DNA from: Escherichia phage vB_vPM_PD06
Reading direction: 5' to 3' (one strand)
DNA length: 64,000 nucleotides
Sequence record: NC_052653.1
Numbering within the stretch: the stretch's first letter is position 1; each line of letters opens with the position of its first letter. Below the pieces are notes generated by a model. The model was given only the letters and a program-made list of their open reading frames with translations. It made no database searches and was not told where the DNA came from. Positions 3,098-35,829 of the stretch are shown piece after piece. The translations under genes and the position numbers were made by a program.

Positions 3098-3304
3098 ATG
3101 GCAGGTGTTTTAGCAGTATTAGGTTGTTTTATTGTTGTATTCTTGATTGTGTTAATCCCTAGTTGGCTACTGCTTTTAGCATACAACTATATGATTGACA
3201 TTATCGGTTTAGACTGGCATCATGTTCCTGTAACGTTTTGGAGTGTAGTCTGTGTGACGTTCATTCTTGCGGTACTTCGTGGTATCTTTCAATCTAACAA
3301 ATAA
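3098..3304 (+). CDS. small membrane protein, two predicted transmembrane helices
   Basis: 68 aa, two long hydrophobic stretches; RBS GGAGAAAG upstream. Confidence 0.4.
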   Translation: MAGVLAVLGCFIVVFLIVLIPSWLLLLAYNYMIDIIGLDWHHVPVTFWSVVCVTFILAVLRGIFQSNK

Positions 3305-3644: not shown

Positions 3645-4622
3645 ATGCAACTGGGTTTCCCAATTATTGATGTGGTTGTTTTAGTGGGTATTTTAGTCTT
3701 GTCGATTTGTATTGATTTCTTCGGACACAGAGAAAACAAAGAAATCTCATTTAAATCTGCAATTGGCTGGTCAATTTTCTGGATTGGGGTATCATTAGCC
3801 TACTATGGTTTTGTATACTTCCAACACGGTGCTGATTTCGCGAGCTTGTTCTTGAGTGGGTATGTGTTGGAGAAATCTCTTTCTGTAGATAACTTAGTAG
3901 TATTTGTGGCAGTATTCGCAAGTTTTGGTATTAAAAGCACACACTTGCAACACAAGATTCTACTTTGGGGTATTGCAGGTGCGATTGTCTTCCGAGGTGT
4001 GTTTGTAGCAGTAGGCACTTACTTGTTGAGTTTGGGCTGGTATGTTAATATCTTCTTCGGTGCTGTCATCCTTTTCTGTGCAGCTAAAATGGTATTCGCT
4101 GGAGATAATGACGCAGAAGTTGATTACTCTAAACACTGGGCTACTCGCATTGTTCGTAAGCTGTTCCCTGTATCTGATCAGATGGATGGTGAGAAGTTCT
4201 TCACAATCAAAAATGGTGTTCGTGTAGCAACTCCTGCATTGGTTTGTGTGTTTGTAATGGAAATGGTTGACGTAATCTTTGCAGTAGACTCTGTTCCAGC
4301 AGTAATTGCAGTGACACAAGAACCTCTGCTTGTATTTTCTTCAATGCTGTGTGCAATTTTAGGTCTACGTGCTCTGTTCTTTGTCCTTAGTGTTGCACTG
4401 AAATATTTGGTTCATCTGGAGAAAGCAGTTATCGTAGTCCTGGTATTTGTGGGTGTAAAACTGATGTATCACCCGTTTGCAGAAACTCTGCACGCAAAAG
4501 TGAGTTTCCTGCCAGCACACATTGATCCGACGATCAGTATGTATATTGTGTTAGGTACTCTGGGGCTGGGTGTTATTGCAAGTTTAATCTTCCCTGAAAA
4601 AGAAGACCAGGCTGTTGCTTAA
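3645..4622 (+). CDS. terC: TerC-family integral membrane protein
   Basis: Polytopic membrane protein of 325 aa containing SVDNLVVFVAVFASFG and a second acidic-then-hydrophobic block (EMVDVIFAVDSVPAVIAV), as in TerC-family proteins; RBS AAGAGGAG. Confidence 0.6.
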   Translation: MQLGFPIIDVVVLVGILVLSICIDFFGHRENKEISFKSAIGWSIFWIGVSLAYYGFVYFQHGADFASLFLSGYVLEKSLSVDNLVVFVAVFASFGIKSTHLQHKILLWGIAGAIVFRGVFVAVGTYLLSLGWYVNIFFGAVILFCAAKMVFAGDNDAEVDYSKHWATRIVRKLFPVSDQMDGEKFFTIKNGVRVATPALVCVFVMEMVDVIFAVDSVPAVIAVTQEPLLVFSSMLCAILGLRALFFVLSVALKYLVHLEKAVIVVLVFVGVKLMYHPFAETLHAKVSFLPAHIDPTISMYIVLGTLGLGVIASLIFPEKEDQAVA

Positions 4623-4661: not shown

Positions 4662-4868
4662 ATGGTGGTTTTACGTGTTCTTTGGATTCTGTTTGAAAAT
4701 ATTTGTTTTGCTTTAGGGTTATTTTGTTTGATTTTTATCTTGACAACATACATTGATAACCATACAATTACTATCAACAGGAACGGAGAACAGATGTATT
4801 GTTTCTCTAGGGATTTTAAAAATTGTGTCGAGACTTTAAATGAGAGGGTTACAAATGAAAAACATTAA
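4662..4868 (+). CDS. hypothetical small hydrophobic protein
   Basis: ORF track; hydrophobic N-terminus; GAGGTG precedes the start. May be spurious. Confidence 0.3.
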   Translation: MVVLRVLWILFENICFALGLFCLIFILTTYIDNHTITINRNGEQMYCFSRDFKNCVETLNERVTNEKH

Positions 4869-5445
4869 ATCTTTTATTGTTGCAGTTGTTTTAGGTAGTG
4901 CATTGCTGGTAGGTTGTGATGATTCTGAAAATGTACAAAACCAACGTTACCAACAAACACCAAATCAGATGGTAGATGAACAATATGTAAATCAACCTGC
5001 ACCTCAAGTTGTTCAAGCAGCACCTGCACAACCTTCAACAGTTGTTGTGCAAGGAGGCGGTAGTGGTTCTTCTGGTGTAGGTGAATTTGCTACAGGTATG
5101 CTTCTTGGTCATATGTTGAGTGGTAATAGTGGCGGTGGTGGTTATAGAGATGGCGGTAGCAATACAACAATTATTAATAACAACGCTGCTCCTACAACTA
5201 ACAGTAAATCATATACAACACAAAAGCATAGTTTTTATGATAAACAAGGGAATACATATACAACAACTAAACAAAACACAATTAAGCAGCAAAGTGTACA
5301 AACGTATTCACGCCCATCAACAACAAAAGTGAATAGTGATTACTCTGCTCGTAAGTCTTACTCAAGCCCTATTAGCTCTTATAGTAAGTCTTCGAAAAGT
5401 TATTCTTCGTCGAAACGTAGTTTTAGTAGCTCACGTCGTCGTTAA
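4855..5445 (+). CDS. predicted lipoprotein with Ser/Tyr/Thr-rich low-complexity tail
   Basis: Start set at MKNIK (4855). Signal peptide ending in lipobox LLVGC, then Gly-rich and S/Y/T/K-rich sequence ending SSSRRR. Confidence 0.5.
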   Translation: MKNIKSFIVAVVLGSALLVGCDDSENVQNQRYQQTPNQMVDEQYVNQPAPQVVQAAPAQPSTVVVQGGGSGSSGVGEFATGMLLGHMLSGNSGGGGYRDGGSNTTIINNNAAPTTNSKSYTTQKHSFYDKQGNTYTTTKQNTIKQQSVQTYSRPSTTKVNSDYSARKSYSSPISSYSKSSKSYSSSKRSFSSSRRR

Positions 5446-8282: not shown

Positions 8283-9077
8283 ATGTCCAATAAAATCAGT
8301 CTTAAAAAACGTCAAGAAACTCTTACTGTATCTCTGCGTAAGAAAAAGATTAACGATGTTGTTCTTCGTGTCGGTAGCGCCTTAGATATTTCGGGTAGTA
8401 TGTGTGAGCTGTATCGTGATGGCACTGTTAGTGATTTTGTAGGTAAACTGCTGCCGTTTGGTATGAAGTTTGATGACAATGCACAGATTGACATGTGGGC
8501 TTTCAATAGTTCTTCTTTTGAACTGCCTCCTGCAACGGCTGATGTGTATGATGATTATGTCGGCTCTTGCATGTCTAATGTTTGCATCAACGGTGGTACT
8601 GCTTATGCTCCAGTAATGCAAGAGATCTATGATACATACTTCGGTAGTGTACCTATGAAAAATATTACACGCGAAGTCGTTGAGTATGAAGAAGTCCCGG
8701 CTAAGGGTTTCCTTGCTAAACTAACTGGTAAAAAAGAACTTGTAGAAGTAACACGTACTATTGTAGAACAGGTTGTAGATACTGATGCACAAGTTGATCG
8801 TACTCCTGCAATGATTTTCTTCCAAACTGACGGGGAAAACATGGATACTTCAGCAGTACGTAGCTTACTGAACAAACACCGCAATACGCCTGTTTACTGG
8901 TTTATGGTTGGTGTAGGTAATGCAAACTTTAAATTCCTGAAAGACTTGGCAAAAGAGTACGATAATGTTGATTTTATCGGTATTGCAGATTTGTCCTTGT
9001 CTGATGAAGAACTTTACGATAAACTGTTATCCGAAGAGTTTGGTGAGTGGGTTAAAAAATTCGGAGCAAAAGCGTAA
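8283..9077 (+). CDS. von Willebrand factor A (vWA) domain protein, TerY/TerF-like
   Basis: MIDAS-like DISGSM (DxSxS) near the N-terminus, downstream threonine-containing and acidic blocks; N-terminal ISLKK..VSLRKK echoes the start of the TerD-like protein. Confidence 0.55.
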   Translation: MSNKISLKKRQETLTVSLRKKKINDVVLRVGSALDISGSMCELYRDGTVSDFVGKLLPFGMKFDDNAQIDMWAFNSSSFELPPATADVYDDYVGSCMSNVCINGGTAYAPVMQEIYDTYFGSVPMKNITREVVEYEEVPAKGFLAKLTGKKELVEVTRTIVEQVVDTDAQVDRTPAMIFFQTDGENMDTSAVRSLLNKHRNTPVYWFMVGVGNANFKFLKDLAKEYDNVDFIGIADLSLSDEELYDKLLSEEFGEWVKKFGAKA

Positions 9078-9149: not shown

Positions 9150-9746
9150 ATGACTCAGAAAATTTCCCTGAAAAAAGGTTCTAGCGAAAAAGTTTCTCTG
9201 AAAAAGATCGCACCAGCACTGAAACGCATTCGTCTGGAATTCTCTTGGAAATCTAACGAAAAACTGGATCTGGATGTTAGTGCTCTGATTTGCCGACACA
9301 ATGCATCTGGTCTGCCGGAACTGTTGTCTCCTCGTCACCTGGTGTGCTACGCGCAGAAATTTGATCCTGAACGTTCTACTTTTGCAGGTGAAGATGTTCG
9401 TGATGGTGTAGGACAGATGGAGCAGATTGATGTTACACTGGATAATATCTCTGCTGAAGCACAGGAAATTGCATTCGTAATTACTATTGATGACGAAACG
9501 GGTAAGAAACGCCTTGGTCACGCTACCGAAGGTTTCCTTAAAATCTTCGATGATGAACGTAATGTTGAACTGCTGGACTTTGACTTCTTGGCTCCAGAAC
9601 TTGCAGGTAACACCATTTGCCACGTTGCCTCCCTGGTGCGAGAAGATAGCGAATGGAAACTGAAAGCGTATGGTGTAGGTAAAGCTGGGCTTGACATTTA
9701 CGATGTAGTTAAAGCGTTTGGCGCTGGCGACGATTGGTTCGAGTAA
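9150..9746 (+). CDS. terD: TerD-domain protein
   Basis: N-terminal ISLKKGSSEKVSLKK, LDLDVSALIC and acidic clusters (FAGEDVRDGVGQMEQIDVTL) match the TerD/TerZ/TerE fold pattern. Codon usage is conspicuously CTG/CGT/CCG/GAA-rich compared with neighbours. Confidence 0.7.
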   Translation: MTQKISLKKGSSEKVSLKKIAPALKRIRLEFSWKSNEKLDLDVSALICRHNASGLPELLSPRHLVCYAQKFDPERSTFAGEDVRDGVGQMEQIDVTLDNISAEAQEIAFVITIDDETGKKRLGHATEGFLKIFDDERNVELLDFDFLAPELAGNTICHVASLVREDSEWKLKAYGVGKAGLDIYDVVKAFGAGDDWFE

Positions 9747-9810: not shown

Positions 9811-10413
9811 ATGGGTATTACTTTAGAAGGTCAAAAACTTATTCGTAGCGGCAATTTTCTTGTAGATATTGACAACAATGAAGATTATGCTTTAGAAGTT
9901 AGTGATGTGCTGTTTGATGCTTTGCAGTCTGGTTTCAATTTTGAAGTTTATGAAGTAATCCGTGGAACTAAACTCAGAGAAACCCTTGGATCATCTAGTG
10001 ATGTTTATCCGGCAATCTGGCAATATTTCGGGTTGATGGAGGGTAAGACATATCTTACTGATAGTTATTCTGAAGATGTTGTTTATCTTGATATGGAAGA
10101 GTTTCGTCGTCTGTTCAAAAGTGAAGAAAATGAAGAAGAGGGTGAACTTTTTGAAGGAATTACTCTCGAAGGTAATGTTGAAATTGTGTACAAAGCAGGA
10201 AAAACATTCCACCTACGCGAAAACGGTAAAGCAAAAGTTGATTTTGTAAACAAGACAGTGACAACTGAACATAATTATCTTAAAGATGGTCAACCAGCTT
10301 TTGAGCGTGTAAAAATTAAATTTAAAGTGTTGTCTGCACTAGTTACGGATCAAGAACGTATTGATTTTGTAGAAGATGGTGTAGTAACTCATACAAAGGT
10401 TTACAATATCTAA
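9811..10413 (+). CDS. hypothetical protein
   Basis: ORF track; RBS AGAGGAG. Confidence 0.5.
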   Translation: MGITLEGQKLIRSGNFLVDIDNNEDYALEVSDVLFDALQSGFNFEVYEVIRGTKLRETLGSSSDVYPAIWQYFGLMEGKTYLTDSYSEDVVYLDMEEFRRLFKSEENEEEGELFEGITLEGNVEIVYKAGKTFHLRENGKAKVDFVNKTVTTEHNYLKDGQPAFERVKIKFKVLSALVTDQERIDFVEDGVVTHTKVYNI

Positions 10414-10505
10414 CAGAGTGTAAGAGGGGGATAATCCCCCTCCACTTGCAAAATAGCCTCTTCTGTGTTACAATAAAAGTTCGTTTAACAAAATAGGAGG
10501 CAAGT

Positions 10506-11015
10506 TTGTCAATAAAAACCTTTGTCGCAATTGCGTTACTATCCTTAACTGCTTTTACATTTACACCTGTTGTGGCGCAAGCCGAAGCTGCAAACGTAAA
10601 AACTGCTAAAGTAGTTCACAAGTGTACAAAGCGTGATAGTAAAGAAAATCTATTAGCTTGTGCAATCTATGCAGAAAGTCGTAATCAAGGAAAGCGCGGT
10701 ATGTCTGCTGTTGGTAATGTAGTATTGAATAGGGCTAGAGATTCATATTTCCCTGATACTATAAAAGAAGTTTTGTTTCAGAAAGGACAATTCTCTTACA
10801 CGAAGACATTCAACGTTATGGAACACGATAAGTGGAAGGAAGCTAAGGCTATAGCAGAACGTCTACTTTATCTCGATAACCATTTTCCAGAACTACGAAT
10901 TGCATTAGATATTACAAAAGGAGCATTATACTTTAAAAAATCTACAATAAGAGCACACTGGGAAAAAGATATGGTTCTAGTGTACCGCTACAAAGAACAT
11001 CAATTCTATCGCTAA
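10506..11015 (+). CDS. secreted SleB-type cell-wall hydrolase; endolysin candidate
   Basis: TTG start after AGGAGG; N-terminal signal peptide (AFTFTPVVAQAEA); CAIYAESRNQGKRGMSAVGNVVLNRA and QKGQFS resemble the SleB/Hydrolase_2 family. Confidence 0.55.
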   Translation: MSIKTFVAIALLSLTAFTFTPVVAQAEAANVKTAKVVHKCTKRDSKENLLACAIYAESRNQGKRGMSAVGNVVLNRARDSYFPDTIKEVLFQKGQFSYTKTFNVMEHDKWKEAKAIAERLLYLDNHFPELRIALDITKGALYFKKSTIRAHWEKDMVLVYRYKEHQFYR

Positions 11016-11025
11016 GGAGATATAG

Positions 11026-11304
11026 ATGAAAGATGGCGTTATCGTTGCAAGTTATCTTGTTATTGGTCTTACAGAAGAGGATGTACATTACATTAGGAAA
11101 CATTTAGAACAGTTTGCAATGATGTTCATCGAAGACGAAGACAATGTGGATGTTTATTCAATTGAAATGATCAATGATAACGTCTATCCTTGTATAGCTT
11201 TACGAGTCGATGAAGATGTTTGGGAACGTTTTTCACGTAGTCACGATAATGTTGAATGTTCTATGGTTATGTCACAAAACAACATACTGGGAGTGTTACA
11301 CTGA
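11026..11304 (+). CDS. hypothetical protein
   Basis: ORF track; RBS AAGGAG. Confidence 0.4.
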   Translation: MKDGVIVASYLVIGLTEEDVHYIRKHLEQFAMMFIEDEDNVDVYSIEMINDNVYPCIALRVDEDVWERFSRSHDNVECSMVMSQNNILGVLH

Positions 11305-11534
11305 TGGCTGATGTTATTGAAGTTAACTTTAAAACAAAAAAGAAAGTTGATAAGTATACAATCTTAAAAAATATTTGCGTTGTGTGCTTCAATTCTGTAA
11401 TATATGACTCACGTAAGGGCGAAGATGAAAATGAACCTTACATCCAGATTTCTAAAGGTAAAGGGCAGTGTATCTGCAAAAACTGTGCTGTAGCAATTAA
11501 GGAGGTTGTAGATGAAAACCATTGGGATCAATGA
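11304..11534 (+). CDS. hypothetical Cys-rich small protein (possible zinc ribbon)
   Basis: Start set at internal ATG 11304; contains CVVC and CICKNC pairs. Confidence 0.35.
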   Translation: MADVIEVNFKTKKKVDKYTILKNICVVCFNSVIYDSRKGEDENEPYIQISKGKGQCICKNCAVAIKEVVDENHWDQ

Positions 11535-11706
11535 TACTGGTGAAGTTGTAAAATCTTGGGATGATCTTAGTGGTATCCCTACAGATAAACTGATTAAACT
11601 GCGTGATGTTTGTCGTGATCATCTTAATGAAACATATAAAGAGTATATGGAAGCACGAGATCACAGTTTAGCTATCCAAATGGAACTCGCAAAACGTAAT
11701 CAATAG
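11512..11706 (+). CDS. hypothetical small protein
   Basis: ORF track; RBS AAGGAGG. Confidence 0.4.
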   Translation: MKTIGINDTGEVVKSWDDLSGIPTDKLIKLRDVCRDHLNETYKEYMEARDHSLAIQMELAKRNQ

Positions 11707-11763: not shown

Positions 11764-12327
11764 ATGATATTTCACATAACTCCCTATCTTTCTGGAGATA
11801 TTGGAAAAGGTATCAATGACACAATAAGTGTCTTACCAGAAGATAGTTGGATTTGCCTAAGAGACATTGATACAATGTTTCTTCTTCCAGAACAACCTGC
11901 TTGGTTGGAATCAATAGTCCGTTCAAATCCTGATTTTGATGTTCTTGGTGCATCTTGTAATAGATTGGGATCAACATATCAATTATTTAATAATGAAAGA
12001 AGTGAAGATCCAAATATATTACACCACATTGAGATTGCAAAAAGAGCACATCTAGAATGGGGAAACTCAATAGAGGAAGTACCTACAGATGCTATCTTAG
12101 CAGGATTCTTTCTTCTCTTTCGTAAGAGTCTGTGGAATGAAATCCCTTTTGAGGAAAGATCAATACAGTTTGATATAATTTTCTCTAAAGCATTACACGC
12201 TAACAATAAAAGGCTAGGTTTACTACGTGGGTTATATTTATTTCACACATACCGTTTAGGTAATGATGATCCTAGAAAAGCTGTTTCACACCTTTTACAT
12301 TGTCAAGACATGAATAAAATTATTTAA
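11764..12327 (+). CDS. hypothetical protein
   Basis: ORF track; RBS GGAGGGAG. Confidence 0.45.
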   Translation: MIFHITPYLSGDIGKGINDTISVLPEDSWICLRDIDTMFLLPEQPAWLESIVRSNPDFDVLGASCNRLGSTYQLFNNERSEDPNILHHIEIAKRAHLEWGNSIEEVPTDAILAGFFLLFRKSLWNEIPFEERSIQFDIIFSKALHANNKRLGLLRGLYLFHTYRLGNDDPRKAVSHLLHCQDMNKII

Positions 12328-12336
12328 GGAGTTATT

Positions 12337-13023
12337 TTGGAAAATACAAAAATTGGTGTTGGTGTTATTACTGTAGGTAAGCGTCCTCTTAAAGATTATC
12401 TTGTGACTGATCCTAATGCTACTTTTGTTGTGCAGTATGATCGGGAACGAAAAGGTGTTGCATATGCCCGTAATGAACTGATGAAAAAGTTTTATGATGA
12501 AGGGTATGATTACTGGTTTATTTTTGATGATGATTGCTATCCGGTTGTGCCAGGTTGGGAAACATATTTTGTAAAACAGGCTAAGGAAAATGGTTGGGAT
12601 TTCTTTGGTATGCCTGAATATTTTAAAGATAAAGTAAAAGGTATTGAGGGTGAAGTGGTTATTTGGGAACTAGGTATGTGTCAGTTTGGTATGTATTCCC
12701 GTGCAGTTATTGAGAAAGCTGGCTATTTCCGCTCATACACCCACGGTTATGGATATGAAGATGCAGAGTGGATTCAGCGCGTTCCACTGGCAGGTTTGAA
12801 CCGAGGTATTCAGGGCGTACCATGTCCTATTCGAATTATGGCGTTTATCCATCCTGACGATGTGTTTGGAGATAATCCTTTACCTTTTGCGAATCTGTCA
12901 AAAGAAGAGAAAGAACAGGGGATTGGTGTAAACTGGGAACAATATAAACAATCACTGGAGGATCTTCGCAATGGTAAAACTTTTATCTCTTATGAGGAGG
13001 CTCAAAAATATGGTAAGTGCTAA
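12337..13023 (+). CDS. hypothetical protein, possible DXD-type glycosyltransferase
   Basis: TTG start with AAGGA RBS; DYWFIFDDDCYP could be a DXD motif. Weak call. Confidence 0.3.
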   Translation: MENTKIGVGVITVGKRPLKDYLVTDPNATFVVQYDRERKGVAYARNELMKKFYDEGYDYWFIFDDDCYPVVPGWETYFVKQAKENGWDFFGMPEYFKDKVKGIEGEVVIWELGMCQFGMYSRAVIEKAGYFRSYTHGYGYEDAEWIQRVPLAGLNRGIQGVPCPIRIMAFIHPDDVFGDNPLPFANLSKEEKEQGIGVNWEQYKQSLEDLRNGKTFISYEEAQKYGKC

Positions 13024-13984
13024 TACTCCTGTACTTAAGTGTGATAATAAGTTAGGCAGTGGTTGTGATTACCATCGTATTGTAATGCCGTTTGCGGGAA
13101 ATACGTTCAAACCTAAGAAAGACGTTTTAGTTTTTAATAGAGTGTACTCTCGTGGATCAGACGAGGTTAAACGCCTGAAGGCACAAGGTGTTAAGATTAT
13201 TGTTGACTTAGATGACTTTTATTCACTTAATCCTGAACATTATATGGCTGGCGTATTTACTAATCACTCAAAGACTATTGTAGAGATGGTTAAGTTAGCA
13301 GATGTTGTTACAGTAACAACAGAATACCTGGCTTACAAAATTCGTCATTTAAACCGTAATGTTGTCGTTATTAGAAACGCACTACCTTACGACGAAGGTC
13401 AATTTACTTTGACAAAAGACCGTTATTCTGACACGCCTATTATTTGGGCTGGAGGAGCAAGCCATGAACCTGATTTATCTCTTGTAGCTAATACATTTGA
13501 TGATACACTATTGACAATTGCAGGGTATGAAGTGTATCCTTCTGCACCTGTTGGAAATAATAGTCAGTATCTAACTACTGCGGAGTGGGTTAAAATAAAA
13601 CGTAAAATTCCAAATGCACAGTATAAACCAGCTATTAAAAATTTAGGTGAGTATATGTCTGTGTATGACGGTCACAGTATTGCAATTGCTCCTCTGGTAG
13701 ATAATGACTTCAACAACTGTAAAAGCAATTTGAAGATTTTGGAAGCAGGTGCAAAGGGTCTTCCTATTATCTGTTCTCCTGTGCTGCCGTACTTCAATCC
13801 GGTAGATGCAAAGGCTGTTATTTATGCAGACTCTAAAGCATCTTGGCATTATGAAGTTGTCAAGCTAATGAGGAACCCTAGATACACAGAAGATCGTGGT
13901 ATGATGCTTGCAGAACACGTTCGTCTTAATTATAATCTTGCAGATGCCAATGAACTGCGTCGTCAAGTTATTGAAAGTCTTTAA
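13010..13984 (+). CDS. glycosyltransferase-like protein, paralog 1
   Basis: Start set at ATG 13010 (GAGGAGG RBS). Shares blocks with the next gene (CDYHRIVMPF vs CDFHRIILPY; IAPLVDNDFNNCKSNLKILEAGAKGLPIICSP vs IAPLVNNHFNNAKSNLKILEAGAKGLPLVCSP); the last block resembles the C-terminal E..G motif of GT-B glycosyltransferases. Confidence 0.45.
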   Translation: MVSANTPVLKCDNKLGSGCDYHRIVMPFAGNTFKPKKDVLVFNRVYSRGSDEVKRLKAQGVKIIVDLDDFYSLNPEHYMAGVFTNHSKTIVEMVKLADVVTVTTEYLAYKIRHLNRNVVVIRNALPYDEGQFTLTKDRYSDTPIIWAGGASHEPDLSLVANTFDDTLLTIAGYEVYPSAPVGNNSQYLTTAEWVKIKRKIPNAQYKPAIKNLGEYMSVYDGHSIAIAPLVDNDFNNCKSNLKILEAGAKGLPIICSPVLPYFNPVDAKAVIYADSKASWHYEVVKLMRNPRYTEDRGMMLAEHVRLNYNLADANELRRQVIESL

Positions 13985-13995
13985 CAAGGAGCCAT

Positions 13996-14940
13996 ATGCC
14001 TAATATTATTCTTGACACACGTGGACATGAGAGGTATAGTGTATGTGATTTTCATAGAATCATTTTGCCATATAAACGCAAACTGACCATTAATCCTAAG
14101 CATAATATTTTTGTGTTCAATGGAGTACCAACTCGTGGAAAGCCAGGTTTCCTGGCTCTTAAACAACTTGGGTTTAAATTGGTAATGGATCTGGATGATT
14201 CTTTAATTATTCCTGAAGGGCATATGCTTGAAGGATTATTTGAAAATCAAATCCGAGATGACCTAAAATGGTTCCTTGAAAGAAGCGATCTTGTAACTAC
14301 AACAACTCCAGCATTAAAGGTTGAATTAAGCCAATACAATGATAATGTACATATTGTGCCTAACGGACTACCTTTTGATGAAGGACAGTTTGTTCTTACG
14401 AAAGATCGTTATTCTAAAAGTCCACTGGTTTGGGCGGGAAGTGAAACACATAAACATGATTTAGCAATTCTCCCTGCTTTTGGTAAAGAGTTAACTTTAT
14501 GTGGATTTCGTAGAGATCACGAAGAGTTAAGTAGTGCTCAATGGTTGCAAATTAAAGAAGAGATTCAACCAGATTGTGTTTATGAAGGTATTCGTCCTTA
14601 TGAGTGTTATATGGAAGCATACGATGGTCATCAAATCTCCATAGCTCCATTAGTAAATAATCATTTTAATAATGCCAAAAGTAATTTAAAAATTCTTGAA
14701 GCTGGTGCTAAAGGTTTGCCACTCGTTTGTTCACCAAGAGAGAACTATTATACTGAAGAGTTTAAAGATCTAATCTTCTTTGCTGATTCAGTTAAAGAGT
14801 GGAAAGATATTGTAGAATACTTAATCGAATCTCCTGATGTTTGTATTGAGAAAGGATTGGCTCTTGCTAAGTATGTAAGAGATAACTACAATATTGATGA
14901 TTTAAATGAAACCCGCAGACTGCTTATCGAGGATTTATAA
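13996..14940 (+). CDS. glycosyltransferase-like protein, paralog 2
   Basis: Tandem paralog of 13010..13984 with the same conserved blocks; RBS AAGGAG. Confidence 0.45.
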   Translation: MPNIILDTRGHERYSVCDFHRIILPYKRKLTINPKHNIFVFNGVPTRGKPGFLALKQLGFKLVMDLDDSLIIPEGHMLEGLFENQIRDDLKWFLERSDLVTTTTPALKVELSQYNDNVHIVPNGLPFDEGQFVLTKDRYSKSPLVWAGSETHKHDLAILPAFGKELTLCGFRRDHEELSSAQWLQIKEEIQPDCVYEGIRPYECYMEAYDGHQISIAPLVNNHFNNAKSNLKILEAGAKGLPLVCSPRENYYTEEFKDLIFFADSVKEWKDIVEYLIESPDVCIEKGLALAKYVRDNYNIDDLNETRRLLIEDL

Positions 14941-15221: not shown

Positions 15222-16994
15222 GTGTCTTATGTTGTAAATAAATATGGGTATAACATTGACCTAAGTCAAGAAGGACATACTGGGTGTCCTCGTTGTATGA
15301 AAGGAGGGCGTGATCGATCACAAAACAATTTGATGGTATACGGCTTAGATGCCGATGAAGACCATCGAGGCGCACATTGTTTTTCTTGTGGCTTTACTAT
15401 CCCTGATCAAAAATGGTTAAATGCACACGGCGAAGAAATTGAAGAGGAGGATATCTTGGGTAGTGAGTTTAATCCAGAAGTACATGATAAACTAAAAGCC
15501 AGCACTGGAACTAATCCAAAAGGTTATCGCGGTATTCGTGAAGATATCTCTAAACCTTTCGGTGTACGCTATATGTACGATGAAGCTACTGGCGAAGTAA
15601 TTTCAACACTATACCCTACAACTAAAGATTACAATATTGCTGGGTATAAACAACGTATTGATCCAAAAGATTTTTCGCATCCTATCGGTGAAACAGGAAA
15701 GGATTGTGATCTCTTTGGGGAGTTTAAATATCGTAACCACAGCGGTACTATTCTAATCGTTGGTGGTGAACACGATATGCTGGCTGCAACACAGATGCTA
15801 AAAGATTATAACAAGGGCGGTAAATATCCTGTTCCTGCTGTAGTATCTGGTACTTGTGGCGAAACATCTCTGCATAAGCAGCTTCAACATCGTTATAAAT
15901 TCTTAGATCAATTTAAAAAGATTGTTCTGTGTATGGATAATGATGAAGCTGGACGTGCAGCAGTTGAGAAATGTGTTAAAATCTTACCACGTAATAAAGT
16001 TTACGTGATGGAACTAACAGATGTTAAAGATCCTAACCAGGCACTAGTAGAAGGAAAAATTGATCACTTTCTTGATCGCTTTTTCAAAGCTAAACTGTAC
16101 ACACCTGCTGGTGTTTATGCTTCTAACGTACTGTATGAAGCAGCCTTGGAATGTCTGGAAGCTAAAATGATTACTCTTCCTCCATTCATGCGTGTTGCTT
16201 CTAATATGTTAGGTGGAGGCTTGGTAGAAGAAGAAATTACTGTTATACTTGCAAAAACAAGTATTGGTAAGACACTGTTGGTTAACGAGATTACGAAACA
16301 CATTATTCTTGCACACCCAGAACATACTCTTGGTATTTTATCTTTGGAGGCAACGTATAAGAAGTATTCTCGTAACTTACTGTCTTCATTCTTGCACATC
16401 CCTCTTCACCGTAAAACAAAAGAAGAGAAGGAAAAGATTTTAAAAGATAATGAAGAAAAGATTCGTGATTTTTACGAACGAGAAGATGGAACACCACGTT
16501 TCTATGTTTGTGATGATCGTGGAGCTAACGTAGATGTGATTAAAGAGAAGGTTCTGGAAATGATTATTTATTTCGGAGTAACCATTCTTGTTATCGACCC
16601 TTATTCTGATTTGCTTTCTGGTATGGACGTGTCACAACAAGAGGAACTTGCGACGTGGCTCAAACGCATTATGAAAGAGTACGCAATTACCATTGTTGTA
16701 ATTTCACACGTTAAAAAGTCTTCTAACAATAGTAATGAACATATTGTAGAAGATGATGCAATGGGTAGTAGCTTCCTTGCTAAAGGTGCTGGTATCACAA
16801 TTGCGCTGGAGCGTGATAAACAAGCTGAAGATCCTATGGAACGTAACCGCACATATTGCTACATTCTAAAGAACCGTGAGTTCTCAGAGACTGGTGCAGC
16901 AGGTAGTTTCTTCTATGAGATTAAAACAGCTACACTTCACGATTACGATCAATACACAAGTAACCCAGAGAATATTCCTGATGGTTCTTATTAA
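15222..16994 (+). CDS. DNA primase-helicase (zinc ribbon, TOPRIM and DnaB-like helicase domains)
   Basis: GTG start after AGGAGA. N-terminal Cys4 zinc ribbon (CPRCMKGG...CFSCGF); TOPRIM-like acidic blocks (IVGGEHD, CMDNDEAG); P-loop AKTSIGKT; Walker-B-like ILVIDPYSD. Confidence 0.75.
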   Translation: MSYVVNKYGYNIDLSQEGHTGCPRCMKGGRDRSQNNLMVYGLDADEDHRGAHCFSCGFTIPDQKWLNAHGEEIEEEDILGSEFNPEVHDKLKASTGTNPKGYRGIREDISKPFGVRYMYDEATGEVISTLYPTTKDYNIAGYKQRIDPKDFSHPIGETGKDCDLFGEFKYRNHSGTILIVGGEHDMLAATQMLKDYNKGGKYPVPAVVSGTCGETSLHKQLQHRYKFLDQFKKIVLCMDNDEAGRAAVEKCVKILPRNKVYVMELTDVKDPNQALVEGKIDHFLDRFFKAKLYTPAGVYASNVLYEAALECLEAKMITLPPFMRVASNMLGGGLVEEEITVILAKTSIGKTLLVNEITKHIILAHPEHTLGILSLEATYKKYSRNLLSSFLHIPLHRKTKEEKEKILKDNEEKIRDFYEREDGTPRFYVCDDRGANVDVIKEKVLEMIIYFGVTILVIDPYSDLLSGMDVSQQEELATWLKRIMKEYAITIVVISHVKKSSNNSNEHIVEDDAMGSSFLAKGAGITIALERDKQAEDPMERNRTYCYILKNREFSETGAAGSFFYEIKTATLHDYDQYTSNPENIPDGSY

Positions 16995-17490: not shown

Positions 17491-20400
17491 ATGGGAGCTT
17501 TTACTTTCGACATTGAAAGTAACAACTTGCTTAATGACGAAAGTGTAGATTACTTGGCAAGTCCATATCGTTTAAAAGATAGTTTTGCAATGCACTGTAT
17601 TGTGTGCGAAAGTCATGATACTGGAGAGATTATTGCTTTCCATGATGGTGATAAATATCTTTTCGATGGTCGTCCGTATATTGAGACTGACGGAAAGTAT
17701 GAATACCGACTGGAGGAATATGAGCATTTAGAATATACCCATTTCCCTCTTAAAGATTTTCCTGATTTTGTAAATGGAACAGGTAAATTTAAAGGTAATT
17801 CAAACTATAAAATTACCAAAGTAGTTGGACACAACATCATTAACTTCGACTTACTGGCAATTAAATTATTTTTTAAACTCAACTACAGTATTAAGTACAA
17901 TACTTGGGGTAATAGTAACATTGAAATTTGTGATACTATGATCTTAAGTAAGACACTAAACCCTGATCGCTTCGGTGGTCATAGTCTGGCAGAGTTATCT
18001 AAGAAAGCTGGAGGGGATGTTAAAATTGATTTTAGAAAAAACATTCCTGAAACTGAAAGATTTAGAACATTTGCAGCAGATATGCTGTATTACTGTATTT
18101 ACGATAACAAAGCTAACACCGCAGTGTTCCGTTATTTGATGGAAGAGTGGGGTGATTATAACAAGTGGTCTGAACCATTTAACTTAGAACAACGTGTAGC
18201 TGATATTATTACACGTCAAGAGCACCGTGGCTTTGCTTTCAATATGAAACAAGCAGAAGATAATATTCGTGATCTGGATGCTCGAATGGAAGCATGTCGT
18301 TTAGAGGCAGAACCTGTGCTACCTCCTAAACCTGCTACTAAAGGTTATTTGAAATCATTCATTCCACCTAAACTACAGTTTAAAAAGAATGGTGAGCCTT
18401 CAAGTAACATGATAAAGTTTGCAGAGAAACATTCTGGTGAACTTGTACAAAAAGAAGATGGTTGGTGGTTATTTGCATTAGGTAAAGAGTTTAAACTACC
18501 TATTCCAGCAGAAGAACCTATTTGTGATCCTACAGTACCTGCTACTTTAGACGACACTACACATATTAAAAATTGGTTAGTTGGTTTAGGTTGGAGTCCA
18601 TCTGAATATAAAGATAAAGATATCACTCTTAAATCTGGCACTAAGATTAAGAAAGATGAAGCACAAATGGAGAAAGCTATTCGTGACTATGTTGATCAAA
18701 CATTAGCATCTAACTTCTGCCAGGATAGATGTGATCATCTGGAGTGCACACCAGAAACTTTGGAATGGAAACTAAGAGATCGTATTGCTAAAGCTAAAGG
18801 TCGTGGTGTTAAAGTGCTTACTAACCCTTCCTTTACAAAAGGGCAAGAGAAGGATATTTGTCCTAACTTGGAAGCACTGGGTGAAAAGTTCCCTTATGCT
18901 ACGCAGATTGTGCAGTATCTTACGTATAAACATCGTAGAAACTCTATTCTAGGTGGTGGTGCTGATTGGGAAGAGGATGAAGAGGATTACGATAAAGGTT
19001 ATCTGGCGGCAGTAAGAGCTGATGGTCGTATACCAACTCCTGCTGCAACGTGTGATGCAGCTACGTCTCGTATGAAACATAGGTTAGTAGCAAATATCCC
19101 ACGTGTAACATCTCTGTACGGATATGAAATGCGTAACTTATTTGGTGTAGAAGTTCCAAAATACTTCCAAATTGGTTATGACTTTGATTCTCTTGAGGCA
19201 AAAATAGAATCACACTACTGTGTACCTATGGATGCACAAGCACTAACCCGTAAAGGTTGGGTTGGTTATCACGATCTACAAGAAGGGGATGAAATCTTAG
19301 GATATAACCCAGAAACAGGACTTAAAGAATGGACTAAAGTAAAAGGTAAGGTCTTCTATAAAAATAGTAAGACGTTTGAGATTAAAGGAAAATCCCATAC
19401 TTATCGTGCAACAGCAGATCACCGTTGGTATGTTAATACTCGTAGTACAGGGAATACTTATGTGCCTAAAGTCAGAACAACTGCCGAGCTTTGCACAGGA
19501 GATAACATTATTTGTAATGCTCCATTTAACATGGAACAAGATCAAGTAAATAGTTTAACTTCTGTTCAACAAGGTAAATGGGATGTTCCGTGGGTAGAAC
19601 GTGTAGTTAATATGTCTCATGCCGAGCGTGTGGCTTTCTTGGAAGGTTTTTTGATTGCGGATGGTTACTGGCACAAACATAAACAAAAACCTGTTTGGCG
19701 CTGGGCGCAGAACCCAGGAGAACTTTTTGAAGCAGCCTTAACTGCCTCATACCTGGTTCATGGGGGTAATATTTCTGTAGCCTTCAATACGAAAGACCAG
19801 AAAGTAAAAGTGGCAACGTTGGCTAACCGCTCTCACATCCCTGTTCAAAGTCTGACTATTGAAGAATGGGGTGTAGAAGATGTTTGGTGTCCACAAACAG
19901 AACTCGGTACATGGGTTATGCGTCAGAAAGACTGCATCACGATTACAGGGAATTGTTGGCGGTACGAGCAGGAACCACACGAATATTGTAATGCTCTATT
20001 GTTGGAAAAACCTAATGATGTTCATACAATGATGGCTCGACGTATTTCTGACACTATTGGTCGTAAGTTTGAACGAAGCCCTGCTAAATCTGTTAAGTAT
20101 GGTATTACTTATGGTGCTCAAGCTGCAAAAGTAGCAAAAACTATAGGTAGTGATATGTATACAGGACAGCTTGTATACGATGCTTTCTGGGAAGCTGCAA
20201 AACCTCTTGCGCTTCTTAAAGAACGTCTGCATGACTTTTGGGTTAAAACAGGTAAGAAATACATTCTTGGTATTGATGGTAGGAAAGTACCTACACGATC
20301 TGCACACGCAATACTTAACTCTCTGTTCCAGAGTGGTGGTGTTATTTGTGCAAAAAGAGCAATGGTTATCTACGATGATCTTATCGAAGAAGAAGGATTA

Positions 20401-20805
20401 GCTGTTGACTTTTTTGTTGATGACTGGAAAAATAAGTCATTCGTTCAACAAATGATTGCATATCACGATGAAGCACAGCTTGAAGTAACTCGTGATCTGG
20501 TGCATTTTAAATGGTTCTCTAAAGAATCTTTAGGTTGGACTCAAGTTGATGATCCAGAAGAACAAAAGAAAATTGATAAAGAATGTTTGGATAAAGTTAA
20601 TGCCTGGAAAGAAGAGGAAGAGAAACGTACTGGCAAGATTTGGGCTAACGTACATGAATCTCCGAAAGGTGGTTGGTTTACAGCCTACAGTCGTGCTGGA
20701 GAATTAGCATCTATCGCTGTTAATAAAGCTGGTGAGTATTACAATCTTAATGTACCTCTAACTGCTGGTTACGATGTTGGTAGTTCATGGTCAACTTGTC
20801 ACTGA
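17491..20805 (+). CDS. family A DNA polymerase with 3'-5' exonuclease domain, interrupted by an intein
   Basis: FDIESN (Exo I DxE); polymerase motif A DFDSLEAKIESHY; motif B RRISDTIGRKF...KYGITYGA; motif C AYHDEAQLE. A 245-aa Hint/LAGLIDADG insertion lies between motifs A and B. Confidence 0.85.
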   Translation: MGAFTFDIESNNLLNDESVDYLASPYRLKDSFAMHCIVCESHDTGEIIAFHDGDKYLFDGRPYIETDGKYEYRLEEYEHLEYTHFPLKDFPDFVNGTGKFKGNSNYKITKVVGHNIINFDLLAIKLFFKLNYSIKYNTWGNSNIEICDTMILSKTLNPDRFGGHSLAELSKKAGGDVKIDFRKNIPETERFRTFAADMLYYCIYDNKANTAVFRYLMEEWGDYNKWSEPFNLEQRVADIITRQEHRGFAFNMKQAEDNIRDLDARMEACRLEAEPVLPPKPATKGYLKSFIPPKLQFKKNGEPSSNMIKFAEKHSGELVQKEDGWWLFALGKEFKLPIPAEEPICDPTVPATLDDTTHIKNWLVGLGWSPSEYKDKDITLKSGTKIKKDEAQMEKAIRDYVDQTLASNFCQDRCDHLECTPETLEWKLRDRIAKAKGRGVKVLTNPSFTKGQEKDICPNLEALGEKFPYATQIVQYLTYKHRRNSILGGGADWEEDEEDYDKGYLAAVRADGRIPTPAATCDAATSRMKHRLVANIPRVTSLYGYEMRNLFGVEVPKYFQIGYDFDSLEAKIESHYCVPMDAQALTRKGWVGYHDLQEGDEILGYNPETGLKEWTKVKGKVFYKNSKTFEIKGKSHTYRATADHRWYVNTRSTGNTYVPKVRTTAELCTGDNIICNAPFNMEQDQVNSLTSVQQGKWDVPWVERVVNMSHAERVAFLEGFLIADGYWHKHKQKPVWRWAQNPGELFEAALTASYLVHGGNISVAFNTKDQKVKVATLANRSHIPVQSLTIEEWGVEDVWCPQTELGTWVMRQKDCITITGNCWRYEQEPHEYCNALLLEKPNDVHTMMARRISDTIGRKFERSPAKSVKYGITYGAQAAKVAKTIGSDMYTGQLVYDAFWEAAKPLALLKERLHDFWVKTGKKYILGIDGRKVPTRSAHAILNSLFQSGGVICAKRAMVIYDDLIEEEGLAVDFFVDDWKNKSFVQQMIAYHDEAQLEVTRDLVHFKWFSKESLGWTQVDDPEEQKKIDKECLDKVNAWKEEEEKRTGKIWANVHESPKGGWFTAYSRAGELASIAVNKAGEYYNLNVPLTAGYDVGSSWSTCH
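19219..19953 (+). mobile_element. intein with LAGLIDADG homing-endonuclease domain, inside the DNA polymerase
   Basis: Starts at Cys (CVPMDAQALTRKGWVGYHDLQEGDEIL, Hint block A), block B TADHRWYV, LAGLIDADG-like ERVAFLEGFLIADGYW, ends ...ITGN followed by Cys. 735 nt = 245 codons. Removal joins motif A directly to CWRYEQ. Confidence 0.7.
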
Positions 20806-31004: not shown

Positions 31005-31345
31005 TAATTTTTGTCCTTACTTTGTGTGCGCTTTGTAATCTCCTCTAGCATTAATTGAACAGGAGCATTTTTTAAATCCATTATTTTTTCAATCTTCTGT
31101 TCTAAGGCAGTATTATTTGCCATTAATGTAGAGTTGATCTGGTTAAGCATTTGAGCAAGTTCTGCTTTGGTAGCATAAGTGGATTCAACAAACACCAACT
31201 TCTTTTCTAGTTCACGGTATTTCTCTTCCATTTTGTCCAAATCACTTGCCATATCATCTATCTTCTGTTTGAAGACCACCCAGATTACACCAATAAGAGG
31301 GATAATCGCCTCTTTAGCGATATCCCATACTTCTGTTAGCTCCAT
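31004..31345 (-). CDS. hypothetical protein with N-terminal transmembrane helix and coiled coil
   Basis: AIIPLIGVIWVVF hydrophobic segment followed by a charged helical region. Confidence 0.4.
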   Translation of the reverse strand: MELTEVWDIAKEAIIPLIGVIWVVFKQKIDDMASDLDKMEEKYRELEKKLVFVESTYATKAELAQMLNQINSTLMANNTALEQKIEKIMDLKNAPVQLMLEEITKRTQSKDKN

Positions 31346-35582: not shown

Positions 35583-35829
35583 AACAACCTCTTTGTTTTT
35601 CTAAGTAAGCCCCTCTTTGGAGGGGCTTGCAGTGGTAGTGACAACACTTTGAGTTAGTACGATAGTAACTAAAGACAAGATTAACCCTGCTACGATATGT
35701 TTTCATCATTTTATCACATGGCGATGACATGCGCTTGCAGGACATAGTTTGTATGGGTTGTGCGGAATGCCATTTTTGGCCTCTTGTCATCAATAAGTAA
35801 GTATTCATTTCCCCCGCCGAAGCGGGGTT

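What the first reader, a model, noticed from the sequence alone, without database searches (positions are those of the whole stretch)
10506..11015. Signal-peptide SleB-type endolysin candidate encoded far from the spanin pair
The only recognisable cell-wall hydrolase is in the early arm, has a cleavable signal peptide, and is about 50 kb from the overlapped i-spanin/o-spanin genes at 61375..62041. No holin is evident next to either. This implies a secreted endolysin and an unconventional lysis gene layout, or an alternative role for this enzyme.
Basis: inference. Interest (0 to 1): 0.4.

Follow-up and report, generated by a model that had tools for sequence, protein, structure and literature searches.

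The report
Exported SleB-like wall hydrolase, phi92 phage
The gene is real and encodes a secreted SleB-family cell-wall-cutting enzyme, but it is the already-annotated gp170 of phi92-like coliphages, which also carry a classic T4-type lysozyme just outside this window, so the scattered lysis-gene layout is normal for this phage group.

Summary
The ORF at 10506..11015(+) exists as described. It has a TTG start and an AGGAGG ribosome-binding site, and encodes 169 aa with a textbook Sec signal peptide (…VVAQA↓EA). It carries a Pfam Hydrolase_2 (SleB/CwlJ) domain (E=6e-20) with the catalytic-Glu motif intact.

The overlapped i-/o-spanin pair at 61375..62041(−) is also real. It lies beside the large terminase gene, and no recognisable holin sits next to either locus.

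The window is only 64 kb of a ~148-kb phi92-like genome (Justusliebigvirus, 98–99% identity), and the ORF is phi92 gp170. All 53 close relatives carry a 166-aa orthologue of T4 gene e lysozyme (52% identity, catalytic residues intact) in the part of the genome outside the window. "Only cell-wall hydrolase" therefore holds for the window, not for the phage.

Published work already reports this picture for rV5/phi92-type phages: two lytic proteins (PF00959 + PF07486), a signal peptide on the SleB-like one, spanins next to TerL, and no lysis cassette.

The most likely role is an accessory muralytic enzyme exported by Sec without a holin. It has its own conserved σ70 promoter and a conserved weak TTG start. 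Whether it helps lysis or remodels the wall earlier in infection is untested.

The feature is already known, so interest is low to moderate.

The parts
10423..10443 (+). GC-rich hairpin (GAGGGGG-ATAAT-CCCCCTC) just after the stop of the upstream gene (phi92 gp171 orthologue, 9811..10413). Probably a transcription terminator or insulator.
   Evidence: Fold of 10410-10505: -31.5 kcal/mol, z=-4.4. The hairpin is kept with compensatory changes in Phapecoctavirus Mt1B1_P17 and Klebsiella phage phi1_175008, the latter with a T-run. The simple terminator scan did not call it because it has no T-run here.
10446..10474 (+). Sigma-70-type promoter with an extended -10: TTGCAA, 17 nt, TGtTACAAT.
   Evidence: Promoter scan, TG flag = yes. 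The pattern is unique in the window, with 0.03 expected by chance. The -35 CTTGCAA and the TGTTAnAnT are invariant in four diverged genomes while the spacer varies. Function is inferred, not shown.
10495..10500 (+). Ribosome-binding site AGGAGG, 5 nt before the TTG start.
   Evidence: Sequence. AGGAGGC and the TTG start are invariant in relatives. The phi92 record annotates the RBS.
10506..10583 (+). Signal peptide, residues 1-26 (MSIKTFVAIALLSLTAFTFTPVVAQA). The predicted SPase I site is after AQA, or alternatively after AEA at residue 28.
   Evidence: n/h/c-region anatomy and the -3/-1 rule. The h-region LLSLTAFTFTP is nearly invariant and the c-region is variable in 14 homologues. rV5 gp002 and a T5-like homologue have analogous cleavable signals. 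The CB7 paper reports a signal peptide on its orthologue (PMC7344957).
10584..11015 (+). Mature SleB/CwlJ-family (Hydrolase_2) catalytic domain, residues 27-169, plus the stop codon. It holds the YAE57SR catalytic-Glu motif and the conserved Cys40 and Cys52.
   Evidence: Pfam PF07486 covers residues 61-168. PDB SleB alignments cover residues 45-113 and align E57 with the Glu of SleB YGESRG. C40, C52 and E57 are invariant in A1 and also present in rV5 gp002 as C30, C42 and E47.
11026..11706 (+). Three small ORFs of unknown function (phi92 gp169, gp168 and gp167 orthologues), tightly packed behind the hydrolase gene and probably co-transcribed. None has a TMD.
   Evidence: ORF list, phi92 annotation, PHROGs of unknown function, synteny conserved.
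61610..62041 (-). i-spanin: 143 aa, N-terminal TMD at residues 15-36, coiled-coil periplasmic domain.
   Evidence: PHROG 4297 'Rz-like spanin' 5e-40. TMD.
61375..61704 (-). o-spanin: 109 aa, lipoprotein signal with Cys19. It overlaps the i-spanin gene by 95 nt and abuts the large terminase gene (59282..61366).
   Evidence: PHROG 1267 'Rz-like spanin' 2e-20. Sequence. SD2 annotates 'o-spanin' and 'terminase large subunit' at this position.
3098..3304 (+). Weak holin candidate only: 68-aa two-TMD protein (phi92 gp184 orthologue).
   Evidence: Two strong hydrophobic segments. PHROG 16065 is of unknown function. The protein is restricted to Stephanstirmvirinae and is annotated 'holin' in one record only, phage BME3. 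There is no functional evidence.

Best explanation
The ORF is the orthologue of phi92 gp170. It encodes a small, basic, single-domain peptidoglycan-cleaving enzyme of the SleB/CwlJ family (Pfam Hydrolase_2), whose characterised members are lytic transglycosylases.

Proposed mechanism:
1. The gene is made with a cleavable Sec signal peptide, so the enzyme reaches the periplasm without a holin.
2. Two conserved cysteines (C40, C52) can form a disulfide there.
3. Output is probably kept low by a conserved weak TTG start codon. Transcription comes from a dedicated host-type sigma-70 promoter in the replication (early/middle) arm.
4. It is not the phage's sole endolysin. It is the second, accessory muralytic enzyme. 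The canonical cytoplasmic endolysin of this phage group is a T4 gene-e-type lysozyme encoded outside the window. The spanins sit next to the terminase gene, and the holin is unidentified.
5. Most likely it is pre-positioned in the periplasm and contributes to wall breakdown when the membrane is de-energised at lysis. Scattered lysis genes are the normal layout of rV5/phi92-type phages.

Shown here: the gene, the domain, the catalytic motif, the export signal, conservation of the promoter and start codon, the existence of the second lysozyme in all relatives, and the spanins.

Inferred: export and signal cleavage, the disulfide, expression timing and level, enzymatic activity on E. coli murein, and the helper-in-lysis role.
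For: Identity:
- The window is 98-99% identical to phi92-like genomes, and the ORF is phi92 gp170.

Family:
- Pfam Hydrolase_2, 72 bits.
- SleB structures are the only PDB matches, with E57 aligned to the catalytic Glu motif. The catalytic Glu is essential for SleB lytic transglycosylase activity (PMC12331253).

Export:
- Classic signal peptide, conserved in 14 homologues, in rV5 gp002 and in a T5-like homologue.
- A signal peptide and toxicity on expression in E. coli are reported for the CB7 orthologue (PMC7344957).

Accessory status:
- A T4-e-type lysozyme (PF00959, 52% identical to T4L, catalytic triad conserved) is present in 53 of 53 close relatives.
- A Phapecoctavirus paper reports 'two lytic proteins', PF00959 and PF07486 (PMC10793346).
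- rV5 gp89 (PF00959) is called 'an obvious lysin' while gp002 is the SleB-like protein (PMC3606486).
- The SleB-like gene is kept across Vequintavirinae while the second enzyme type varies: M15, GH19 or a lysozyme-like enzyme (PMC7344957, PMC9862379, PMC11370258).

Muralytic competence of the family on Gram-negative hosts:
- Vp670 CwlQ (PF07486, no signal peptide) is described as the only endolysin candidate of that podophage and was studied together with the holin HolA (PMC6180450).

Expression signals:
- The promoter, hairpin, RBS and TTG start are all conserved.
Against: - There is no experimental datum for gp170 or any signal-peptide member. The only hint is the CB7 toxicity, reported as 'data not shown'.
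- A soluble, active muramidase released into the periplasm from an early promoter should be harmful before progeny are made. Some unknown restraint must therefore be assumed.
- SleB proper needs muramic-delta-lactam, which is absent from E. coli murein.
- Strict vertical conservation alongside interchangeable canonical endolysins argues for a non-redundant job rather than a mere helper.
- Timing is inferred from position and promoter type only. rV5 has sigma-70 promoters all over its genome (PMC3606486).
- One paper reports no signal peptides in related phages (PMC10698182).
- The AlphaFold model was too poor to use, with pLDDT 55.
Confidence: 0.45

Rival explanations
1. Early periplasmic wall-remodelling factor with no direct role in lysis. 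The enzyme is secreted early from its own host-type promoter and makes limited cuts in murein. Possible purposes include allowing cell enlargement, altering the wall against superinfecting phages, or releasing anhydromuropeptides. Lysis itself is done by the T4-e-type lysozyme, a holin and the spanins.
For: - The gene has a dedicated sigma-70 promoter with an extended -10 directly after a hairpin, in the replication-gene arm.
- In rV5 the orthologue overlaps the start of rIIA, an early gene in T4.
- The conserved weak TTG start suggests low dosage.
- The gene is vertically conserved across rV5-, phi92- and T5-like phages, which each have another endolysin of varying type (PMC7344957, PMC11370258).
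Against: - No precedent was found in the papers searched for an early secreted phage muramidase with such a role.
- Family members do act as lysis endolysins (Vp670 CwlQ, PMC6180450; pf16 putative endolysin, PMC5587285).
- Promoter type does not prove early timing in this group (PMC3606486).
Confidence: 0.3
2. Principal, holin-independent secreted endolysin. gp170 is the enzyme that actually lyses the cell, and the T4-e-like protein is secondary or has another use.
For: - RefSeq and several records label it 'endolysin'.
- PHROG 938 'endolysin'.
- No holin can be identified anywhere in the relative's genome, which would fit a Sec-dependent route (PMC6658697).
- The CB7 orthologue is toxic in E. 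coli, and a two-TMD candidate holin overlaps it there (PMC7344957).
Against: - A full-length, catalytically intact orthologue of T4 lysozyme is universally conserved in the group.
- rV5 authors assign lysis to the PF00959 enzyme (PMC3606486).
- No membrane protein adjoins gp170 here. The downstream ORF is soluble and acidic.
- An unrestrained secreted endolysin gives no control over timing.
Confidence: 0.15
3. SAR-type (signal-arrest-release) or membrane-tethered enzyme rather than a cleaved soluble one. The N-terminal segment is not cut. It holds the enzyme inactive in the inner membrane until depolarisation by a (pin)holin releases it.
For: - The h-region is rich in Ala, Ser and Thr (about 45%) and is unusually well conserved for a signal peptide.
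- The Pakpunavirus homologue K8_033 has an N-terminal TMD with no AXA site.
- A conserved Cys lies 5 residues before the catalytic Glu, which recalls disulfide caging in P1 Lyz (own knowledge).
Against: - Pro at -6 and AQA at -3..-1 form a canonical SPase I site.
- The signal segment has no Gly run and no Cys.
- The rV5 and T5-like homologues also have canonical cleavage motifs.
Confidence: 0.1

Closest known systems
phi92 gp170 (YP_009012502) and its orthologues in Stephanstirmvirinae and Vequintavirinae (rV5 gp002, PVP-SE1 gp243, CB7_83, CR3_087)
   Same: It is the same gene. It is about 98% identical to phi92 gp170 over 169 aa (close relatives score 98-99%), and the surrounding DNA is 98.1% identical to phi92. 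It is about 75% identical to Phapecoctavirus orthologues and 40% identical to rV5 gp002. All share the same length, signal peptide, Cys pair and catalytic motif.
   Different: Nothing material. In rV5 the gene is followed by rIIA rather than by small ORFs and glycosyltransferases. In CB7 a two-TMD ORF overlaps it (PMC7344957), and no such ORF exists here.
Bacillus SleB / CwlJ spore-cortex lytic enzymes (PDB 4F55, 4FET; Pfam PF07486)
   Same: The catalytic-domain sequence family is shared, and the Glu of the Y-x-E-S-R motif is aligned. SleB also carries a signal peptide. In SleB the domain is a lytic transglycosylase (PMC12331253).
   Different: - gp170 has no N-terminal PG-binding domain and no YpeB-like partner.
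- The host makes no muramic-delta-lactam cortex, so substrate specificity must differ.
- Sequence similarity is confined to roughly residues 45-113 at the single-sequence level.
Vibrio phage Vp670 CwlQ, with holin HolA
   Same: Hydrolase_2 catalytic domain in a phage of a Gram-negative host. It is the one family member for which I found experimental work on lysis (PMC6180450).
   Different: CwlQ is 129 aa with no export signal. It is described as the only endolysin candidate in a 43-kb podophage. It is 28% identical to gp170.
Sec-exported endolysins with cleavable signal peptides (e.g. Oenococcus fOg44 Lys44) and SAR endolysins (P1 Lyz, phage 21 R)
   Same: All reach the wall by the host Sec system without needing a holin hole. 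In those systems activity is restrained until the membrane is de-energised (own knowledge; reviewed in PMC6116005, which I did not read in detail).
   Different: - The catalytic fold is different.
- In those phages the exported enzyme is the only endolysin and sits beside a holin or pinholin.
- Here it is a second enzyme, remote from every other lysis gene.
T4 lysis gene layout (e, t, rI, spanin genes scattered)
   Same: Lysis genes are dispersed around a large virulent myovirus genome. The E-type lysozyme of the phi92 group is 52% identical to T4 E.
   Different: No homologue of the T4 holin T was recognised. No roughly 200-aa single-TMD protein appeared in the membrane-protein scan. T4 has no exported SleB-like enzyme.

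Membership tests
Pfam PF07486 Hydrolase_2 (SleB/CwlJ cell wall hydrolase family) | Sequence match to the family profile above the curated gathering score | tested here: met
   72.2 bits against a cut-off of 27, E=5.8e-20, residues 61-168 on profile positions 2-100 of 100. All 19 close homologues carry the precomputed PF07486 hit.
Pfam PF07486 Hydrolase_2 (SleB/CwlJ cell wall hydrolase family) | Catalytic glutamate just N-terminal of the Pfam core (Glu of Y-G-E-S-R-G in SleB) | tested here: met
   E57 in YAESR aligns with that Glu in 4F55 and 4FET. It is invariant in 15 sequences and present in the rV5, T5-like, Pakpunavirus and Vp670 homologues. That this Glu is the catalytic one (B. anthracis E151) is from my own knowledge. 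It fits the numbering: 4FET chain residue 120 plus 31 gives 151. Its essentiality is stated in PMC12331253.
Pfam PF07486 Hydrolase_2 (SleB/CwlJ cell wall hydrolase family) | SleB catalytic-domain fold | tested here: inconclusive
   AlphaFold2 on the 15-sequence alignment gave mean pLDDT 55 and pTM 0.45. The model is too poor for a fold search, so none was run.
Pfam PF07486 Hydrolase_2 (SleB/CwlJ cell wall hydrolase family) | Peptidoglycan-cleaving (lytic transglycosylase) activity | not testable with these tools
   This needs an enzyme assay on sacculi with muropeptide analysis.
Sec-exported (signal-peptide) endolysins | N-terminal cleavable type I signal peptide | tested here: met
   n-, h- and c-regions are present with Pro at -6 and A-Q-A at -3..-1. 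The Kyte-Doolittle peak is 2.06 and there is no lipobox Cys. The feature is conserved in homologues. No dedicated predictor was available, and cleavage itself has not been demonstrated.
Sec-exported (signal-peptide) endolysins | Is the enzyme that brings about host lysis at the end of infection | not testable with these tools
   This needs phage genetics. A canonical T4-e-type lysozyme co-exists in all relatives, which counts against gp170 being the sole endolysin.
SAR endolysins | Weakly hydrophobic, Gly/Ala-rich N-terminal TMD that lacks a signal-peptidase site and can leave the membrane | tested here: not met
   A canonical AXA site follows the hydrophobic core, and there is no Gly in the core. 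This rests on sequence reasoning only.
Classical lysis cassette (holin-endolysin-spanin cluster) | A holin gene adjacent to the endolysin and/or the spanins | tested here: not met
   The neighbours of gp170 and of the spanins have no TMD-bearing holin-like ORF. No tested membrane protein in the window or in relative SD2 hits a holin family. The distance from gp170 to the spanins is 50.4 kb.
Two-component spanins, overlapped architecture | An inner-membrane protein with an N-terminal TMD plus an outer-membrane lipoprotein encoded in an overlapping +1 frame | tested here: met
   The i-spanin has a TMD at residues 15-36. The o-spanin has a lipobox with Cys19. The genes overlap by 95 nt. PHROG 'Rz-like spanin' hits are 5e-40 and 2e-20. 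The rV5 family is catalogued in PMC6139136.

The most novel reading that the evidence does not exclude
The signal-peptide SleB-like proteins of large virulent Gram-negative phages (rV5-, phi92- and T5-like lineages) could form a functional class of their own. On this reading they are low-dose, Sec-secreted periplasmic lytic transglycosylases, expressed from host-type promoters well before lysis. Their job would be wall remodelling or envelope conditioning rather than lysis, and the conserved Cys40-Cys52 pair next to the catalytic Glu may gate them. This would explain why they are inherited vertically while the true endolysin is swapped between genera.
Probability: 0.25. Interest if true: 0.55.

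Novelty: already known. Interest (0 to 1): 0.22.

Why it matters
For annotation, it matters in two ways.
- A 64-kb window of a 148-kb phage genome cannot support 'only' statements.
- 'Endolysin' labels on this gene in RefSeq are by similarity only. Some gene callers also drop the TTG start and with it the signal peptide.

For biology, the open question is modest but real. Many large coliphages, Salmonella phages and Pseudomonas phages used in therapy cocktails keep an exported SleB-family enzyme in addition to a canonical endolysin. In the papers I could search, nobody has shown what it does or how the cell survives its secretion. A simple knockout and a time-course experiment would settle it. 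The enzyme class is also a possible source of small, basic, naturally exported muralytic enzymes.

Tried and rejected
1. Structure route. AlphaFold2 on the 15-sequence alignment gave pLDDT 55. I abandoned it and ran no fold search. The family-profile-versus-PDB search replaced it.

2. Holin hunt.
- I ran a Kyte-Doolittle scan of all arm-consistent ORFs of relative SD2.
- None hit a holin family.
- 35032..35277 is a generic 'membrane protein' PHROG inside the baseplate cluster.
- 31004..31345 is a TMD plus coiled-coil 'lipoprotein' PHROG in the tail-fibre cluster.
- 3098..3304 is lineage-restricted and is labelled holin in one record only.
- The 'hol-like chemotaxis protein' of SD2 has no TMD and only coiled-coil noise in Pfam, so I rejected it.

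3. Repeated promoter class. The idea that the promoter belongs to a repeated phage promoter class was rejected: there is only one copy in the window.

4. Envelope module. I considered that the adjacent glycosyltransferases make this an envelope-modification module. It is weakened because their only remote hits are to DNA-glycosylating enzymes.

5. Downstream inhibitor. I considered that the downstream 92-aa ORF is a YpeB-like inhibitor. It has no export signal and no family hit, so I dropped the idea.

6. Literature on timing. I found no transcriptome for rV5- or phi92-type phages. The SleB structure papers (PMC3415495, PMC3621120) and the BME3 paper could not be read.

7. Virion component. 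The 2026 phi92 whole-virion structure paper does not mention gp170, lysozyme or hydrolase. An exported protein would also not be packaged.

Full report
**What is at the coordinates**

Window 10506..11015(+) is an intact ORF of 169 codons. It starts at TTG, 5 nt after AGGAGG. The product matches Pfam PF07486 Hydrolase_2, the SleB/CwlJ 'cell wall hydrolase' family, at 72 bits against a gathering score of 27 (E=5.8e-20). It also matches PHROG 938 'endolysin'.

Among solved structures it matches only the catalytic domains of Bacillus SleB, 4F55 and 4FET. The E-value is 7e-6 for the single sequence and 1.3e-10 for a profile of 15 homologues. In those alignments Glu57 of the motif YAESR falls on the Glu of SleB's YGESRG. 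That residue is the catalytic glutamate, which is essential for SleB's lytic transglycosylase activity (PMC12331253). The residue identity is from my own knowledge and is consistent with the 4FET numbering.

The N-terminus is MSIK–TFVAIALLSLTAFTF–TPVVAQA↓EA. This is a textbook type I signal peptide: a basic n-region, a 15-residue hydrophobic core, Pro at −6 and Ala at −3/−1, with no lipobox cysteine. I had no SignalP-type tool, so cleavage is an inference from the sequence.

**The rest of the observation**

The two ORFs at 61610..62041(−) and 61375..61704(−) are a genuine overlapped two-component spanin pair. The i-spanin has an N-terminal TMD and the o-spanin has a lipobox with Cys19. They overlap by 95 nt, and their PHROG 'Rz-like spanin' hits are 5e-40 and 2e-20. 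They lie directly upstream of the large terminase gene, 50.4 kb from the hydrolase.

No neighbour of either locus looks like a holin. No other peptidoglycan hydrolase domain was found in the window's tail, baseplate or tape-measure proteins. A tblastn search with T4 E, the relative's E-like lysozyme and lambda R also found nothing in the window.

**What the window is**

The DNA is 98–99% identical to about 53 phi92-like Escherichia myoviruses (genus Justusliebigvirus, Stephanstirmvirinae), whose genomes are 145–150 kb. The window aligns to SD2 (PQ821640) from about 77.7 kb down to about 12.0 kb. It therefore covers only about 43% of the genome.

The ORF is phi92 gp170 (YP_009012502). It is called 'putative cell wall hydrolase' or, in RefSeq, 'endolysin', and the record notes similarity to PVP-SE1 gp243.

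**The missing piece is outside the window**

SD2 encodes a free-standing 166-aa protein at 131361..131861. It matches Pfam PF00959 Phage_lysozyme. It is 52% identical over its whole length to T4 gene e lysozyme, and the equivalents of T4L Glu11, Asp20 and Thr26 are conserved. The ~50% full-length tblastn hits to annotated e genes of many T-even phages corroborate it independently.

This protein occurs at ≥95% identity in 53 phage records and at about 77% in Phapecoctavirus. That equals the number of close relatives of the window and nearly equals the 52 records that carry gp170 at ≥95%. Every sequenced member of the group thus appears to have both enzymes.

I cannot see the rest of this particular genome. 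At 98–99% identity it would be surprising if the gene were missing.

**What the literature already says**

- The rV5 genome paper calls gp89 (PF00959) 'an obvious lysin'. [quoted passage not shown] The SleB-like gene in rV5 is gp002, which overlaps the start of rIIA.
- The Certrevirus CB7 paper describes three PG-degrading candidates. One is a SleB-like protein that is conserved in all Vequintavirinae genera, has a signal peptide and is toxic when expressed in E. coli (data not shown). The paper also reports spanins next to the large terminase, no classical cassette, and a candidate class II holin overlapping the SleB-like gene (PMC7344957).
- Other genera pair the SleB-like gene with a GH19 or M15C enzyme (PMC9862379, PMC11370258).
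- The Center for Phage Technology could not identify a holin in the rV5-like phage LL12 (PMC6658697).

The 'unconventional layout' is thus the known norm for this supergroup, and the gene and its signal peptide have been noted before.

One paper on related phages reports that no signal peptides were detected (PMC10698182). That conflicts with the sequence and with the CB7 paper. A start-codon problem may explain it: SD2's annotators begin the gene at an internal GTG and so lose the signal peptide.

**Comparative anatomy**

Fourteen homologues at 61–80% identity keep the hydrophobic core (LLSLTAFTFTP) almost unchanged, while the cleavage region varies. They also keep Cys40, Cys52 and Glu57 invariant. 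rV5 gp002, at 40% identity, has the same plan: signal …VVA↓AP, Cys30, Cys42 and Glu47.

- A T5-like homologue has its own cleavable signal (…SQA↓SH).
- The Pakpunavirus homologue K8_033 has an uncleavable-looking N-terminal TMD.
- Vibrio podophage Vp670 CwlQ is the bare catalytic domain with no export signal. Its authors found no other endolysin candidate in that phage and studied CwlQ together with the holin HolA (PMC6180450).

Homologues occur in 1,221 phage records, almost all from Gram-negative hosts. The family therefore supplies the presumed cytoplasmic endolysin of at least one small phage, and exported versions in large phages that carry another endolysin.

**Expression signals**

The 92-nt gap upstream holds three elements in order:
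- a GC hairpin at 10423–10443;
- TTGCAA, 17 nt, TGtTACAAT at 10446–10474, an extended −10 promoter;
- AGGAGG followed by the TTG start.

In phi92, a Phapecoctavirus and a Klebsiella Stephanstirmvirinae phage, the −35, the extended −10, the RBS and the TTG start are all invariant. The spacer and flanks vary, and the hairpin shows compensatory changes. This promoter form is unique in the window, with 0.03 expected by chance.

I infer a dedicated host-RNA-polymerase promoter and a deliberately weak start codon, that is, low-level expression independent of the late programme. rV5 carries σ70 promoters throughout its genome (PMC3606486), so this does not prove early timing. I found no transcriptome for this group.

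The gene heads a conserved string: three small soluble ORFs followed by four glycosyltransferases. The only remote similarities of those glycosyltransferases are to DNA-glycosylating enzymes, so I do not read the string as an envelope module.

**Holin**

It is confined to Stephanstirmvirinae and is labelled 'holin' in a single record, BME3. It remains a guess.

**Mechanism and verdict**

The best-supported reading, at about 0.45, has these steps:
1. gp170 is an accessory SleB-family muralytic enzyme exported by Sec without a holin.
2. It reaches the periplasm on its own, is probably disulfide-stabilised, and is kept at a low dose.
3. It contributes to wall breakdown at lysis alongside the T4-e-type lysozyme and the spanins.

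An early, non-lytic wall-remodelling role (about 0.3) fits the promoter, the gene's position and its vertical conservation at least as well on some counts, and cannot be excluded.

The step that no model explains is how a soluble periplasmic muramidase is kept harmless until lysis.

The gene, its domain, its signal peptide, the co-existing lysozyme and the scattered layout are all already in the literature and databases. I therefore rate the finding as already known, with low to moderate interest (0.22). A modest upside remains if the exported enzymes prove to be a distinct functional class.

Noticed in passing
window 3645..4622(+), 8283..9077(+), 9150..9746(+): A set of tellurite-resistance-type stress genes sits in the replication arm near the hydrolase. 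They are TerC (integral membrane, PF03741, 1e-38), a vWA-TerF-like protein (PF10138, 1.5e-38) and TerD (PF02342, 5e-28). Their role in a virulent coliphage is unclear.
   Followed up: no
window 11764..14940(+): Four consecutive glycosyltransferase genes lie downstream of the hydrolase operon head. One has weak similarity to TET-associated glycosyltransferase (PF20691, 6.8e-5) and to beta-glucosyl-HMC-alpha-glucosyltransferase (PHROG 842). Together with the dTDP-rhamnose genes elsewhere in relatives, this hints at DNA hypermodification.
   Followed up: partly
window 10456..10462 and 10495..10501: In RNA read through from upstream, GCCUCUUC can pair with the RBS AGGAGGC. The upstream partner lies inside the promoter spacer. 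Only read-through transcripts, not promoter-initiated ones, would therefore have the RBS masked.
   Followed up: no
window 10506..10571; SD2 (L004) 16207..16716: Annotation inconsistency. SD2's record starts the gene at an internal GTG (147 aa), which deletes the signal peptide. The phi92, Mt1B1_P17 and Klebsiella phage records use the conserved TTG start. This may explain a published 'no signal peptides' statement (PMC10698182).
   Followed up: partly
window 31004..31345(-): A 113-aa protein with an N-terminal TMD and a long coiled coil sits inside the tail-fibre cluster. It matches PHROG 15210 'lipoprotein' and has weak hits to an Rz-like spanin family (PHROG 739, 2.5e-4). It has i-spanin-like anatomy in an odd place.
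   Followed up: no
window 4840..5445(+): A 201-aa predicted lipoprotein (…ALLVG|C) with a long, low-complexity, Ser/Gly/Gln-rich mature part. It matches PHROG 21570, of unknown function.
   Followed up: no
window 35435..37796 and the 7922/7923 junction: Relative to SD2, the window has a non-aligning segment of about 2.4 kb that covers most of the 705-aa tailspike-like gene at 35830..37947, probably a receptor-binding-protein swap. The window also lacks a 468-bp segment that SD2 has (a phi92 gp175-like gene).
   Followed up: no
phage records MG065689, MG065656 (hits H22, H132): Records named 'Campylobacter phage' with host C. jejuni are about 98% identical to this E. coli phage group. The host labels are probably wrong, or the phage stocks were contaminated.
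   Followed up: no
window 17491..20805(+): The DNA polymerase gene is annotated in relatives as an intein-containing precursor: PaulScherrer places the intein at locus positions 13211..13945, and SD2 labels it 'intein-containing DNA polymerase precursor'.
   Followed up: no
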